Assembly (NCBI RefSeq): GCF_009914755.1
Contig: NC_060947.1
Direction: 5' to 3' (one strand)
Length of the DNA: 64,000 bases
Source of the DNA: the human T2T-CHM13v2.0 reference genome, Homo sapiens
In this document: positions 29,126 to 33,389 of the stretch, in pieces
Position numbering within the stretch: the first letter of the stretch is position 1
Layout of the letters: each line of letters opens with the position of its first letter
Made by a program: the position numbers and the translations under genes
Notes under the pieces: generated by a model
Databases searched by the model: none
The model's input: the letters and a program-made list of their open reading frames with translations, nothing else
What the model was told of the DNA's origin: nothing

Positions 29126-29260
29126 GGCAGCCGGGGGAGTCCGAGAGGAAGCGGAGGCGCGAGCTGGAGGCGGCGGCTCCCGTCGGCCTCCGGCAGGACT
29201 GAGCGCTGGGAAGCCGGAAGGCGGGCGCGCACGGCGGAGAGGCGGGCGGGAGGCCGGAGC
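29126..29260 (+). promoter_or_regulatory. CpG-rich, GC-box-containing 5'UTR carried in with the retrocopy
   Basis: About 20 CpGs in 135 bp and GGCGGGCGGG motifs in otherwise CpG-poor DNA. Promoter activity is only an inference. Confidence 0.4.
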
Positions 29261-29297
29261 ATATTAATGAAAAGTGCCATAAACTGAAAAACCAAAC

Positions 29298-29948
29298 ATG
29301 AGGGTAGCAGGTGCTGCAAAGTTGGTGGTAGCTGTGGCAGTGTTTTTACTGACATTTTATGTTATTTCTCAAGTATTTGAAATAAAAATGGATGCAAGTT
29401 TAGGAAATCTATTTGCAAGATCAGCATTGGACACAGCTGCACGTTCTACAAAGCCTCCCAGATATAAGTGTGGGATCTCAAAAGCTTGCCCTGAGAAGCA
29501 TTTTGCTTTTAAAATGGCAAGTGGAGCAGCCAACGTGGTGGGACCCAAAATCTGCCTGGAAGATAATGTTTTAATGAGTGGTGTTAAGAATAATGTTGGA
29601 AGAGGGATCAATGTTGCCTTGGCAAATGGAAAAACAGGAGAAGTATTAGACACTAAATATTTTGACATGTGGGGAGGAGATGTGGCACCATTTATTGAGT
29701 TTCTGAAGGCCATACAAGATGGAACAATAGTTTTAATGGGAACATACGATGATGGAGCAACCAAACTCAATGATGAGGCACGGCGGCTCATTGCTGATTT
29801 GGGGAGCACATCTATTACTAATCTTGGTTTTAGAGACAACTGGGTCTTCTGTGGTGGGAAGGGCATTAAGACAAAAAGCCCTGGCCGGGCGCGGTGGCTC
29901 ACGCCTGTAATCCCAGCACTTTGGGAGGCCGAGGCGGGTGGATCATGA
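29298..29948 (+). CDS. Open chimeric ORF, 216 aa: FAM3C residues 1-195 plus 21 Alu-encoded residues ([21 protein letters not shown]); translation unproven
   Basis: ORF track [11 protein letters not shown]...GIKTKSP matches FAM3C as I recall it (signal peptide, C58/C64/C86/C185). The frame runs into the Alu at 29883 and stops at TGA 29946-29948. Confidence 0.6.
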
Positions 29949-30198
29949 GGTCAGGAGATCGAGACCATCCTGGCTAACAAGGTGAAACCCCGTCTCTACT
30001 AAAAATACAAAAAATTAGCCGGGCGCGGTGGCGGGCGCCTGTAGTCCCAGCTACTCGGGAGGCTGAGGCAGGAGAATGGCGTGAACCCGGGAAGCGGAGC
30101 TTGCAGTGAGCCGAGATTGCGCCACTGCAGTCCGCAGTCCGGCCTGGGCGACAGAGCGAGACTCCGTCTCAAAAAAAAAAAAAAAAAAAAAAAAAAAA
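29883..30198 (+). mobile_element. AluYb8, full length
   Basis: Yb8 diagnostics: GGATCATGAGG, CTAACAAGGTG, GGGAAGCGG, GAGATTGCG and the 7-bp duplication CAGTCCGCAGTCCG. CpGs intact, pure A tail (30171-30198), 15-bp TSD AAGACAAAAAGCCCT at 29868-29882 and 30197-30211. Confidence 0.97.
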
Positions 30199-30211
30199 GA
30201 CAAAAAGCCCT

Positions 30212-30310
30212 TTTGAACAGCACATAAAGAACAATAAGGATACAAACAAATATGAAGGATGGCCTGAAGTTGTAGAAATGGAAGGATGCATCCCCCAGAA
30301 GCAAGACTAA
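30212..30310 (+). pseudogene. Displaced FAM3C C-terminal coding segment (residues 196-227)
   Basis: TTT GAA CAG CAC...CAA GAC TAA translates to [32 protein letters not shown], with no stop or frameshift. Confidence 0.93.
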
Positions 30311-31891
30311 TGGAAATGTGGAGAGAATTGAAGAAAGCGCACTTTCACTCTTAATGGGAGAGCTATAAAAGGCAGAGCTATGTGTAAATATTTTAAGAGC
30401 ATGCAGCCATCTTGGTGTGTGCATGAGTATTGTCTCTTTTGATATCAGGATTATTTATTGCTAACGTAAATAGATAGCATTGTAAATAATCATCACAATG
30501 ATCAAATCACTGAACCATGTCTCCGCACATTTCCCTAAAAGTACAATGTTTAGACTGCTATGGTAATACATATTTTAAATTCTAAAAGCATACACAATGT
30601 GTAACTGAATGGTTTGTGAAAAATATATTGATATATATACTAGTTGCTGTGAAAATATCATGGAATAATAGGGATTTTAGGGTGGATACTTTATTTTCTT
30701 TTATATTTCTATATGTTGCCTTGTGATGACATTATCTTTTAAATTAAAAAGAGATTTGGCTAGTTGTGTGTGTAATGTTACTTTACAGTCCGACTCTCCT
30801 GATGTACCTCTTTTCATGATCTTTTTCTTTCCTTCCCAAGAAACTGAGGAATGTTTAATATGAAAACATACATCGGATATGTGAAAAGCACAACAAAATT
30901 CTTAATGTACACAGTAAAAAAGTAAATATATAAATGTAGATGGCATTTAGGACCACAGCTTGCTGGATTTGTGTTAGCTATGGGAATAACTTGATTTTGT
31001 ATAAGCTATTTAGAGTGAGGCTGGAGGTGGCAGCTTCACAGAACTGGAGAACCAGGCCAAGTCCCCTCCCCAACCTAATTAGGTCATTCAGGACAGCTAA
31101 GTCAGTATATTTAGAGCAATACTAGCATACGTTTTTCTTAGTTGTTATCAGCATTGACCAAGTGGTTTGGAAGGAGGCATGCTTTAATATCACAATAATT
31201 TTGATTTGTAAACCAAGAAATTAATCCTGTGTTTATCTAACTTCATAATAGCAATTATTGCCCGAAGCTATAGTGGCATATTTACAAAAGTTCTTATTAC
31301 TGGGTGGACTGATAATATTTAAAAAATAATTGTGTTTGACCCCAAATGACTTTATACCCAATTCTACATAAAAATATACAAGATCTATCTTTTTTTGTTA
31401 CCTTCAGATGTTCACTAAATAACTCAGTTTTTAAGCAGAAGTTTTCAGGGCATTAAATATATGTTGTGTATGAAGTATCTCAAACTGGAACATAAATTTA
31501 GTGATCAAACTGCCATTCACAGTGTAAGGCAGCACTTAAATTTCGAACCTAAGGTTTAGATGCATTGTATAAAAAAACCTAAAAGCAGTATCTGTTATTT
31601 AGCTGTAAACCAAGTTGGAAGCTATTCGGATAATTTCTTAAATATTGATGAACTTTGGAGTACTGTTTCTTCCTTCAAACTGAATGTAATTAATTCATGA
31701 ATAAATGCACCTTATATGTTTAAACAATCTTTGTATACTTTTGGGATTTTTGGTGCTTATATGCTAAATCACATTCAGCATGTGTATTTTGACATTTAAA
31801 ATACTTCCCTCAATTCTGTAAATTAAAAGAATAGTTATTTTACAGTTCCAGGGATTGTGAAATAAACGTTGCAGTTTTTTAAAATAATGAA

Positions 31892-31897
31892 AATAAA
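31892..31897 (+). terminator. Polyadenylation signal of the FAM3C retrocopy
   Basis: AATAAA 21 nt upstream of the encoded poly-A; a second AATAAA lies at 31861. Confidence 0.8.
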
Positions 31898-33389
31898 TAC
31901 TCTTGGTTTTGCTTTGTGAAAAAAAAAAAAAGAAATATATTTCTACTCAAACTTGCTCTAGAGCAGCAGAAGTTGTTCTTTATAAAACTAATTATCAAGA
32001 TTATATAAATGAGAGATACAATTGCTCAATGTGCATCTTTCTTTCTAATTCATTTTAGTTCTTTTAAAAACAGGGAGAGGCATGCAGATTGAGAACTCTT
32101 CAAAAGACATTGTTCCTTTCTGTATATAATTTACAACCTTTTCATTATATTCCCAACATTTTTATCACTCATGTGATATGCTGCAAGCATTTTGGTGAGC
32201 AGCACTTCATGAATAAAATGTATCAGTGCCTGTAAAATTTGTAAGAAGAATACCTCAGGCATACTTGAAATAGAGCACATTTTTGACACTTCACACTTAT
32301 AATAATTCATACTCCAGAGGCCTTTTTCATCTTGTGTATCAGCAAGCTGGAAAACCTCCATAGCCAGGAAGGGTAAATTCCCTATGTGCCATGTTCCTAA
32401 AATCATTGGGCTAGGGTTGCTCCCTTCCCACACATGACATTTTCAAAAGTTAAAATCTGCTAATGGCCCCTCAAGCAAAACCTTTTTGCCTTTTGGTGAT
32501 ACTGTGACACCGACTAAGAGTTCTCACACTGTATTAAGTACGAAGGTATATCCCCCAGTTACATTACTAGTAGTGCCCAAGAGAGGAGAATTGTCTGGCT
32601 TAACTTATTCCTAGTTTTTGATCATCTGCTAAAGAATAATAATACACGTTTGCAAAATAAACCATCAGTGCACAAAAGCTTAACATTATCATCCACCCCA
32701 AATTGAACTTTAATTGGAATATAATGAATACTTGGAGTATTTCTTAAACATCTCCCACATCCCTAATGTTTTTTCCTAAAATTCCATGTTTTCTGTTATC
32801 TCAACTTACGATTGAAAGCTGACCTCCAAAGCAACACAAATACTATGTATACCACATATTGAAGTATAGCTGATCTTGCTGAAGACATTGATAACTTCCT
32901 CATTGCAAAAATCATCTTCAGTTATTTTCCATCTTGTTGGAATACTTACTCAAGCACTTGAAGCTGCTGAGTCATTCCTTTCATTAACTAAAAAAAAAAT
33001 ATTGTGCACTTATGTTATTCCAGGCAGTGGGAATACAATAATTAATAATAATTTTTAAAAGAGTCTCAAAGCTCAAAGGAGTTTACAACCTAGTGGCAAA
33101 ACAGAGTAATTACCAGATAATTATAAATCAGAGTGGTAATGTCATAAAACAGTGAGAAAATATTGCAATAATAGGGGCTCCAGCCCCAGACTTCGGGGGT
33201 TAGGAAAAGCTCCCATAGGGCATTGCATTCCAGTTGAGTCTGGAAGAATTAGTCAAGTCATCCAGGGGAAGGATTTAGGGAAATGGAGTTCCAGAGATAA
33301 ATCAGTATATACATAATCCCAGAGGCAAGAAAGAATAGAGAATTTGGGGAACTTCAAGTAGCTCAGGATGGCGAGAGCTTAAGAGTCAG

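What the first reader, a model, noticed from the sequence alone, without database searches (positions are those of the whole stretch)
29126..31943. A FAM3C/ILEI retrogene disabled only by one young AluYb8: Alu-free alleles would encode a second intact ILEI
Seen: removing the Alu and one TSD copy (29883-30211) joins 195 codons to 32 codons plus TAA, giving an uninterrupted 227-aa ORF. I find no difference from human FAM3C as I recall it. The TSD is perfect, the 5' CpGs have not decayed and both UTRs are present. Known: AluYb8 is human-specific, still active and often polymorphic for presence/absence. Inference: two very recent nested retrotranspositions occurred here. There may be three alleles (empty site, intact retrogene, Alu-disrupted), making the Alu an on/off switch for an extra copy of a secreted EMT and amyloid-beta regulator.
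Basis: partly seen in the sequence, partly recalled or inferred. Interest (0 to 1): 0.8.

Follow-up and report, generated by a model that had tools for sequence, protein, structure and literature searches.

The report
FAM3C retrocopy split by young Alu
This is the annotated human X-linked pseudogene FAM3C2P, a spliced copy of the FAM3C/ILEI gene whose coding sequence is still letter-perfect but is cut in two by a young Alu element, and whether some people lack that Alu could not be tested here.

Summary
Window 29126-31920 is a full-length processed copy of FAM3C mRNA. All 9 exon junctions are joined, it has a short A tail, and it is flanked by a perfect 14-bp target-site duplication (TSD). An AluYb8 (29883-30196) with a perfect 15-bp TSD sits exactly between codons 195 and 196. 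Removing the Alu and one TSD copy gives a 227-codon frame.

Against the parent gene on chr7 of the same genome, the copy has 0 differences in 684 coding bases. It has 12 substitutions in the UTRs (2 of 172 in the 5'UTR, 10 of 1610 in the 3'UTR) and no indels. So the Alu is the only disabling lesion, but the retrocopy is not "very recent". Its rough age is 1-3 Myr, so an empty-site allele is unlikely.

The Alu matches a consensus of 29 genomic Yb copies at 288 of 288 positions and keeps 24 of 24 CpGs, so it is younger than the retrocopy. However, 1 of 26 sampled full-length Yb copies is also unchanged, and GRCh37 carries an insert of the same length. Alu presence/absence polymorphism is untested; I put it near 0.2.

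There is no evidence of a promoter, and published "FAM3C2" expression values look like cross-mapped FAM3C reads. This is a known pseudogene and a tidy example, of modest interest.

The parts
29112..29125 (+). Left copy of the retrocopy's target-site duplication (AAGAAATATATTTC), preceded by TT (target TT|AAGA)
   Evidence: 14 of 14 identical to 31930-31943
29126..29297 (+). 5'UTR of the retrocopy (parental exon 1, 131 nt, plus the start of exon 2); GC 0.68; 20 CpG
   Evidence: 2 substitutions in 172 nt (29135, 29212); 20 of 20 parental CpGs kept
29298..29882 (+). FAM3C codons 1-195 (signal/anchor region and the Pfam ILEI domain at residues 102-189)
   Evidence: 0 differences from the chr7 exons; identical to PDB 5LC2_A. 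PF15711, E=1.7e-29
29868..29882 (+). Left copy of the Alu target-site duplication (AAGACAAAAAGCCCT = codons 191-195, KTKSP), preceded by TT
   Evidence: 15 of 15 identical to 30197-30211
29883..30170 (+). AluYb8 body, in the same orientation as the retrocopy, with the 7-nt GCAGTCC tandem duplication
   Evidence: its 50-mer spanning the duplication has 1463 exact copies in the genome (reversed control 0); 0 of 288 positions differ from the majority consensus of 29 Yb copies; 24 of 24 CpGs kept
30171..30196 (+). Alu A tail: 26 pure A, or 28 counting the first two A of the TSD
   Evidence: by the same measure, 7 of 26 sampled Yb copies have a run of 28 or more; median 24
30197..30211 (+). Right copy of the Alu target-site duplication
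30212..30310 (+). FAM3C codons 196-227 plus TAA, cut off from the rest of the frame by the Alu
   Evidence: 0 differences from the parent; 32 of 32 identical to 5LC2_A residues 174-205; also matches FAM3A (E=4e-13)
30311..31920 (+). Complete long 3'UTR (1610 nt), with AATAAA at 31892-31897
   Evidence: collinear with the last chr7 exon; 10 substitutions, no indels. The RefSeq pseudogene span stops at 30952, but the homology runs on to 31920
31921..31929 (+). Short poly(A) tail of the retrocopy (9 A before the TSD)
   Evidence: The parent has T-rich genomic sequence after the corresponding base
31930..31943 (+). Right copy of the retrocopy's target-site duplication
29298..29948 (+). Frame as it now stands: 216 aa (195 aa of FAM3C plus 21 aa read from the Alu), then TGA

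Best explanation
This is FAM3C2P, a processed (L1-made) copy of a long-3'UTR FAM3C mRNA.

- Shown: the copy inserted at a TT|AAGA site on the X, in an intron of PTCHD1-AS and on the opposite strand.
- Inferred: this happened on the human lineage roughly 1-3 Myr ago.
- Shown: it carried 172 nt of 5'UTR but no upstream promoter sequence of the parent.
- Shown: an AluYb8 later inserted at a second TT|AAGA site, exactly between codons 195 and 196. It cuts off the conserved last 32 residues.
- Shown: the Alu is the only lesion in the reading frame.
- Inferred: the locus is a non-coding relic. The unchanged CDS mostly reflects youth plus strong constraint on the parent. The Alu is fixed or at high frequency, so no working second ILEI gene exists in most or all people.
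For: Structure:
- Exons 1-10 are joined at the 9 canonical junctions (AG 9 of 9, GT 9 of 9) and are collinear over 2466 nt with no indels.
- Both TSDs are perfect, there are A tails, and both targets read TT|AAGA.

Age of the retrocopy:
- 12 of 2466 positions differ: 9 transitions and 3 transversions, with 34 of 36 parental CpGs kept.
- Non-CpG differences are 9 of 2392 (0.376%) over two lineages. The 26 sampled full-length Yb copies show 0.465% on one lineage.
- With the 0.15%/Myr rate used in PMC3831846 (passages), this gives about 1.25-2.5 Myr. The Poisson range on 12 is 6.2-21.0.

Human-only listing:
- In Table S9 of PMC4558860, 'FAM3C' occurs once across seven primate sheets, in the Human sheet.

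The Alu:
- 0 of 288 positions differ from the consensus.
- The hg19 interval chrX:23093703-23096507 is 2805 bp, the same as window 29126-31930 with the Alu. So 2 of 2 reference haplotypes seen carry it.
- Base rate: 499 of 2433 full-length Yb elements are polymorphic (PMC3831846, passage).

Expression:
- FAM3C2 appears in print only in gene lists. Of 7 papers found, 3 were opened, and one of those was a false hit, 'FAM3C' with reference superscript 2.
- Its top co-expressed genes include MET, MDFIC and CALU.
- FAM3C lies 4.6 Mb from MET and is co-amplified with it (PMC7890988, passages). This fits reads of the 99.5%-identical parent being assigned to the pseudogene.
Against: - All 12 differences fall outside the CDS. 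The chance of that is 0.02 if sites are equal, and 0.009-0.12 under scenarios that allow for constraint on the parent. This could mean the copy's frame was under selection before the Alu arrived.
- The Alu has no change at all, including 24 CpGs, and its A run is in the upper third (7 of 26 sampled copies have 28 or more). Both fit a very recent, possibly still segregating insertion.
- GEPIA-type tables give FAM3C2 non-trivial values (14.6 vs 5.8). I explain these as cross-mapping but did not test that.
- The chimpanzee sheet of the primate catalogue names many genes as LOC numbers, so its silence on FAM3C is weak evidence.
Confidence: 0.72

Rival explanations
1. The Alu is a presence/absence polymorphism. 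Some present-day X chromosomes carry the retrocopy without it, with an intact 227-codon frame identical to FAM3C. That allele is transcriptionally silent or of no consequence.
For: - The Alu matches the Yb consensus at 288 of 288 positions with 24 of 24 CpGs kept.
- It has a pure A run of 28 and a perfect 15-bp TSD.
- About a fifth of full-length Yb copies are polymorphic (499 of 2433; PMC3831846).
Against: - Both reference haplotypes seen carry it: CHM13 (the window) and GRCh37 by length.
- An unchanged copy is not rare among Yb elements in general. 1 of 26 sampled copies is unchanged, and P(0 changes at the mean Yb age) is 0.08.
- A-run length did not track divergence in the sample (rho -0.12, p 0.55).
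- The Alu is not among the ten X-linked Alu markers in common use (positions in PMC6008373 Table 1).
- No coordinate hit in the supplements of four mobile-element papers. I did not check which coordinate systems or lists those files hold, so this says little.
Confidence: 0.2
2. One reading: the retrocopy is an expressed second ILEI gene in Alu-free carriers, so the Alu acts as an on/off switch for extra secreted ILEI. An empty-site allele may also still segregate.
For: - The frame would be identical to FAM3C.
- The CpG-rich 5'UTR is undecayed: 20 of 20 CpGs.
- There are no CDS changes (P 0.009-0.12).
Against: - No parental promoter was copied. The copy starts inside exon 1.
- It lies antisense in a lncRNA intron (annotation supplied with the finding).
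- No retrocopy-specific expression evidence was found.
- The 12 substitutions make an empty-site allele very unlikely.
- It also requires the polymorphism of the previous rival.
Confidence: 0.04
3. The retrocopy was a working, selectively maintained hominin X-linked ILEI gene for most of its life, and was then lost through the Alu insertion. That would be a recent loss of a recent gene.
For: - 0 of 684 CDS changes against 12 of 1782 UTR changes.
- If the parental UTRs are constrained, so that most changes lie on the copy's lineage, P falls to about 0.01-0.02.
Against: - If both UTR lineages drift freely, P is only 0.08-0.12.
- The changes could not be polarised for lack of an outgroup.
- At least one difference looks parental: at 31867 the copy has CpG where the parent has TpG.
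- There is no expression evidence.
Confidence: 0.1

Closest known systems
FAM3C2P (RefSeq pseudogene, earlier symbol FAM3C2, ENSG00000174028)
   Same: It is this locus. The annotation given with the finding places it at 29126-30952. Table S9 of PMC4558860 lists it as a FAM3C (NM_014888) retrocopy at hg19 chrX:23093703-23096507.
   Different: The RefSeq span ends at 30952, while homology to the parent's last exon continues to 31920. I found no printed statement that the Alu is its only lesion. The FAM3C2 search found 7 papers; the 2 genuine mentions I opened are gene lists. FAM3C + retrocopy found 0 papers. The 25 rows listed by the broader retro-term search all lacked FAM3C.
FAM3C / ILEI, the parent gene on chr7 (G000:C7:122664167-122711617, minus strand)
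   Same: The 684-nt CDS is identical, and the 5'UTR start, exon order and distal poly(A) site are the same. The protein is identical to PDB 5LC2. It matches the Pfam ILEI domain.
   Different: The copy has no introns and no upstream promoter. It lies on the X, has 12 UTR substitutions, and its frame is broken after codon 195 by the Alu.
Human-lineage retrocopies with intact frames, such as NANOGP8 and CSNK2A3 (named among the 127 human-specific retrocopies in PMC4558860, passage)
   Same: It is a young, full-length, L1-made copy of an autosomal gene, listed only for human in the same catalogue.
   Different: Those have uninterrupted frames and reported function. This one is interrupted in every haplotype seen here (2 of 2).
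AluYb8 insertions, including presence/absence polymorphisms
   Same: It has the 7-nt duplication that defines the lineage (PMC3831846 passage; window 30129-30142). It is identical to the consensus and has an A tail and a TSD.
   Different: Polymorphism, the feature that would make it matter, is not shown for this copy.

Membership tests
Processed (L1-mediated) retrocopy | Exons joined exactly at splice junctions, no introns | tested here: met
   Ten chr7 exons with AG 9 of 9 and GT 9 of 9. They are collinear with the copy over 2466 nt with no indels.
Processed (L1-mediated) retrocopy | 3' poly(A) downstream of a poly(A) signal, flanking target-site duplication, and a TT|AAAA-like target | tested here: met
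   AATAAA at 31892-31897; A run at 31921-31929; 14-bp perfect TSD; TT|AAGA target.
AluYb8 | 7-nt tandem duplication (GCAGTCC) near the 3' end, plus the Yb diagnostic bases | tested here: met
   The duplication is present. The 50-mer across it has 1463 exact genomic copies. 288 of 288 positions are identical to the majority consensus of 29 such copies. That consensus was derived here, not taken from Repbase or Dfam, so Yb8 versus a close sub-branch rests on the majority of Yb copies being Yb8.
AluYb8 | Human-specific insertion (absent at the ape orthologous site) | not testable with these tools
   No ape genome is held; G000 has no relatives.
Polymorphic mobile-element insertion | Both filled and empty alleles observed in people | not testable with these tools
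   Only filled alleles were seen: CHM13 (the window) and GRCh37 by length. No hit in marker panels or supplements.
FAM3 / ILEI protein family | Pfam PF15711 domain and a full FAM3 fold through the C-terminus | tested here: not met
   The domain at residues 102-189 is present (102.6 bits against a cut-off of 27). In the sequence as it stands, however, the last 32 residues are detached by the Alu. These residues are conserved in FAM3A (E=4e-13) and weakly in FAM3B.
Functional retrogene | Uninterrupted frame | tested here: not met
   The frame runs into the Alu and stops at 29946-29948.
Functional retrogene | Signature of purifying selection on the copy | tested here: inconclusive
   0 of 684 CDS changes against 12 of 1782 UTR changes; P 0.009-0.12 depending on parental constraint. 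No outgroup was available to polarise the changes.
Functional retrogene | Own transcription | tested here: inconclusive
   Only database-derived values were found in two gene lists. Their co-expression with 7q31 genes suggests cross-mapped parental reads.

The most novel reading that the evidence does not exclude
Alu-free copies still segregate, or did in archaic hominins, and encode an expressed X-linked second ILEI. On this reading, the untouched CDS (0 of 684 against 12 of 1782) records purifying selection on a hominin-specific retrogene that a single AluYb8 then knocked out. That would be a gene born and lost within the human lineage, with a natural on/off polymorphism.
Probability: 0.06. 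Interest if true: 0.65.

Novelty: already known. Interest (0 to 1): 0.27.

Why it matters
As a biological system it is ordinary: an annotated processed pseudogene with a nested Alu. Three things give it modest value.

1. It is a clean, datable pair of nested L1-driven insertions. The only frame lesion is a mobile element, so one junction genotype in pangenome or archaic data would settle whether an intact extra ILEI frame exists in any human.

2. The copy is 99.5% identical to FAM3C mRNA over 2466 nt. It is therefore a likely source of mis-assigned RNA-seq reads and of false FAM3C2 "expression" in cancer gene lists.

3. The copy preserves an older state of the FAM3C UTRs. At 31867, for example, it has CpG where the parent has TpG.

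Tried and rejected
**Searches of the genome and protein databases**
- A DNA search of the genome with the Alu body found nothing, because common words are skipped. I replaced it with an exact 50-mer pattern.
- A protein search with the 216-aa frame was meant to look for intronless 227-aa frames from unannotated sources. The database holds annotated eukaryote proteins and transcript assemblies clustered at 90% identity, so it cannot separate alleles. It only showed that FAM3C is highly conserved: cluster representatives named for a mouse and a parrot species are 94% and 92% identical.

**Polymorphism in print**
- X-linked Alu marker panel: none of the 10 markers lies near this place, and the nearest, Ya5DP13, is a Ya5 element.
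- Coordinate or gene-name searches of supplements found no hit in PMC3831846 (3 files), PMC6191304 (1 file), PMC6094920 (16 of 16 files after two calls) or PMC5668948 (4 of its 15 files not searched). I did not check which coordinate systems or lists those files hold, so these blanks say little.
- PMC4608704 (retrocopy loss polymorphisms): no FAM3C in 3 files.
- Callinan 2003 and Carter 2004 were not read. The X-chromosome Alu survey that might name this copy is not in the library.

**Other dead ends**
- The structure paper for ILEI (PMC5602407) is not held. I recall that a C-terminal cysteine forms a disulfide, but nothing here rests on that.
- Polarising the 12 changes with the older chr3 copy failed. 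That copy only covers window 29262-29467, and none of the 12 sites lies there.
- A-tail length as an age marker showed no correlation with divergence in 26 copies, so I dropped it as evidence.
- Gene conversion from chr7 as the cause of CDS identity was rejected on reasoning alone. The exons are 30-127 nt islands in the parent, and the UTR within the same last exon has diverged.
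Full report
**What is there**

Reading 28900-32200 shows a GC-rich start at 29126 and an open frame from 29298. An Alu in the same orientation occupies 29883-30196, followed by AT-rich sequence to an A run at 31921-31929.

A script found two perfect duplications:
- A 14-bp duplication (AAGAAATATATTTC) at 29112-29125 and 31930-31943, around the whole unit.
- A 15-bp duplication (AAGACAAAAAGCCCT) at 29868-29882 and 30197-30211, around the Alu.

Both targets read TT|AAGA, the usual L1 endonuclease type of site. 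That this motif is the consensus is established knowledge, not tested here.

Removing 29883-30211 gives one 227-codon frame ending in TAA at 30308-30310. The Alu's TSD is exactly codons 191-195, so the insertion lies between codons 195 and 196. As the sequence stands, the frame runs 21 codons into the Alu and stops, giving 216 aa (29298-29948).

**Comparison with the parent gene**

The window's own genome could be searched.
- The coding part matched seven exon pieces on contig 7 at 97-100%. It also matched one old fragment on contig 3 at 77%.
- The 3' part matched one contig-7 stretch at 99%.
- The 5' part matched three contig-7 exons.

I fetched the ten exon regions and set the boundaries at AG and GT (9 of 9 each). 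I then spliced them in a script.

The spliced parent is 2466 nt, the same length as 29126-31920 without the Alu and one TSD. The two differ by 12 substitutions and no indel: 2 of 172 in the 5'UTR, 0 of 684 in the CDS including the stop, and 10 of 1610 in the 3'UTR.

Independent checks agree:
- PDB chain 5LC2_A ("Protein FAM3C") is identical to residues 55-195 and to all 32 residues after the Alu. The break falls between chain residues 173 and 174.
- Pfam finds the ILEI domain at residues 102-189.
- The detached 32 residues also match FAM3A (E=4e-13) and, weakly, FAM3B, so they belong to the conserved fold.

The one correction is that the UTRs are not identical to the parent.

**Age of the retrocopy**

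Of the 12 differences, 9 are transitions and 3 are transversions. 34 of 36 parental CpGs are kept, including all 20 in the 5'UTR.

As an internal clock I took the first 30 genomic places (all on contig 1) that hold the Alu's 50-mer with the 7-nt duplication. That 50-mer has 1463 exact copies in the genome; the reversed control has 0.
- 29 of the 30 gave an alignment containing the duplication; one locus gave none and was dropped.
- 26 of the 29 are full length.
- Their non-CpG divergence from their own majority consensus is 29 of 6240 (0.465%). Their CpG divergence is 36 of 1248 (2.9%).

The retrocopy and its parent differ at 9 of 2392 non-CpG sites (0.376%), summed over two lineages. With the 0.15%/Myr rate used for Alu dating in PMC3831846 (passages read):
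- The sampled Yb copies average about 3 Myr.
- The retrocopy comes out at about 1.25 Myr if both lineages drift, or 2.5 Myr if only the copy changes.
- The Poisson range is about two-fold either way (6.2-21.0 for 12).

So the copy is about as old as, or somewhat younger than, a typical Yb8 element. It is young in evolutionary terms but not recent in population terms.

It most likely arose after the human-chimpanzee split. This agrees with Table S9 of Navarro and Galante 2015 (PMC4558860; supplement searched and one part read). There "FAM3C" occurs once in seven primate sheets, in the Human sheet. The chimpanzee sheet names many parents as LOC numbers, so its silence is weak.

A presence/absence polymorphism of the whole retrocopy surviving that long is improbable. 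This is an inference from typical human coalescence times and was not tested.

**Age of the Alu**

The Alu matches the 29-copy consensus at 288 of 288 positions and keeps 24 of 24 CpGs. It must be younger than the copy it sits in.

The evidence is less sharp than it looks:
- 1 of the 26 sampled full-length copies is also unchanged.
- The mean is only 2.5 changes per copy, so an Alu of average age has an 8% chance of showing none.
- Its A run (28 by the measure applied to all copies) is exceeded or equalled in 7 of 26. Run length did not correlate with divergence.

**Is the Alu polymorphic?**

This is the crux, and it could not be tested, because no human panel, archaic genome or ape genome is available here.

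Indirect points:
- The catalogue's hg19 interval, chrX:23093703-23096507, is 2805 bp. That is exactly window 29126-31930 with the Alu. So GRCh37 carries it as CHM13 does.
- 499 of 2433 full-length Yb elements are reported polymorphic (PMC3831846, passage).
- None of the ten standard X-linked Alu markers lies here (PMC6008373 Table 1).
- Supplements of four mobile-element papers gave no coordinate hit. I did not verify what coordinates they list.

I put the chance of a segregating Alu-free allele near 0.2.

**Would an Alu-free copy work?**

Its protein would be ILEI itself. But the copy begins inside parental exon 1, so it brought no upstream promoter. It also lies on the strand opposite to the PTCHD1-AS intron that hosts it (annotation supplied with the finding).

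"FAM3C2" turned up in 7 papers in the searched library, of which I opened 3:
- A table of GEPIA-derived values, 14.6 against 5.8.
- A top-10 co-expression list with MET, MDFIC and CALU.
- A false hit, "FAM3C" followed by reference superscript 2.

FAM3C lies 4.6 Mb from MET at 7q31 and is co-amplified with it (PMC7890988, passages). That MDFIC and CALU are also on 7q is recalled. A pseudogene on the X that tracks 7q31 genes is what cross-mapped reads from a 99.5%-identical parent would give. This is inference, not a test.

**The one odd feature**

All 12 differences avoid the CDS.
- If sites were equal, the chance is 0.02.
- Allowing for constraint on the parent's CDS and UTRs, it ranges from 0.009 (parental UTRs frozen) to 0.12 (parental UTRs free, parental CDS frozen).
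- FAM3C is very conserved: cluster representatives named for a mouse and a parrot species are 94% and 92% identical over the aligned 195 residues. The parental CDS therefore contributes little.

Without an outgroup I could not assign the changes to lineages. One of them looks parental: at 31867 the copy has CpG where the parent has TpG. The deficit is a hint of past selection on the copy, no more.

**Verdict**

This is a real, correctly described structure and a known annotated pseudogene (FAM3C2P).
- The nested-insertion reading is right.
- The "very recent" dating of the outer event and the three-allele idea are not supported.
- The Alu on/off idea remains an untested possibility that also needs transcription, for which there is no evidence.

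Noticed in passing
G000:C3:157245115-157245313 (locus L006): A second, much older FAM3C-derived fragment on contig 3. It is 75-77% identical and contiguous across window 29262-29467, which spans parental exons 2 to 5, so it is also a processed copy. It does not reach the 3'UTR at the sensitivity used.
   Followed up: partly
window 30952-31920: The RefSeq pseudogene span ends at 30952, but homology to the parent's last exon continues for 968 nt to 31920, downstream of AATAAA at 31892-31897. The source transcript therefore used a distal poly(A) site, and the annotated span understates the copy.
   Followed up: yes
window 29107-29113 and 29863-29869: The retrocopy and the Alu nested in it both inserted at the same hexamer, TT|AAGA.
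   Followed up: no
window 31867 (also 30720 and 31305): At 31867 the copy has CpG where the present parent has TpG, so the parent probably changed after the copy was made. The pseudogene preserves an older state of the FAM3C 3'UTR. At 31305 the reverse holds: CpG in the parent, TpG in the copy.
   Followed up: no
literature: Cancer gene lists report FAM3C2 as expressed, prognostic, and co-expressed with MET, MDFIC and CALU. This pattern is what mis-assigned reads from FAM3C at 7q31 would produce.
   Followed up: partly
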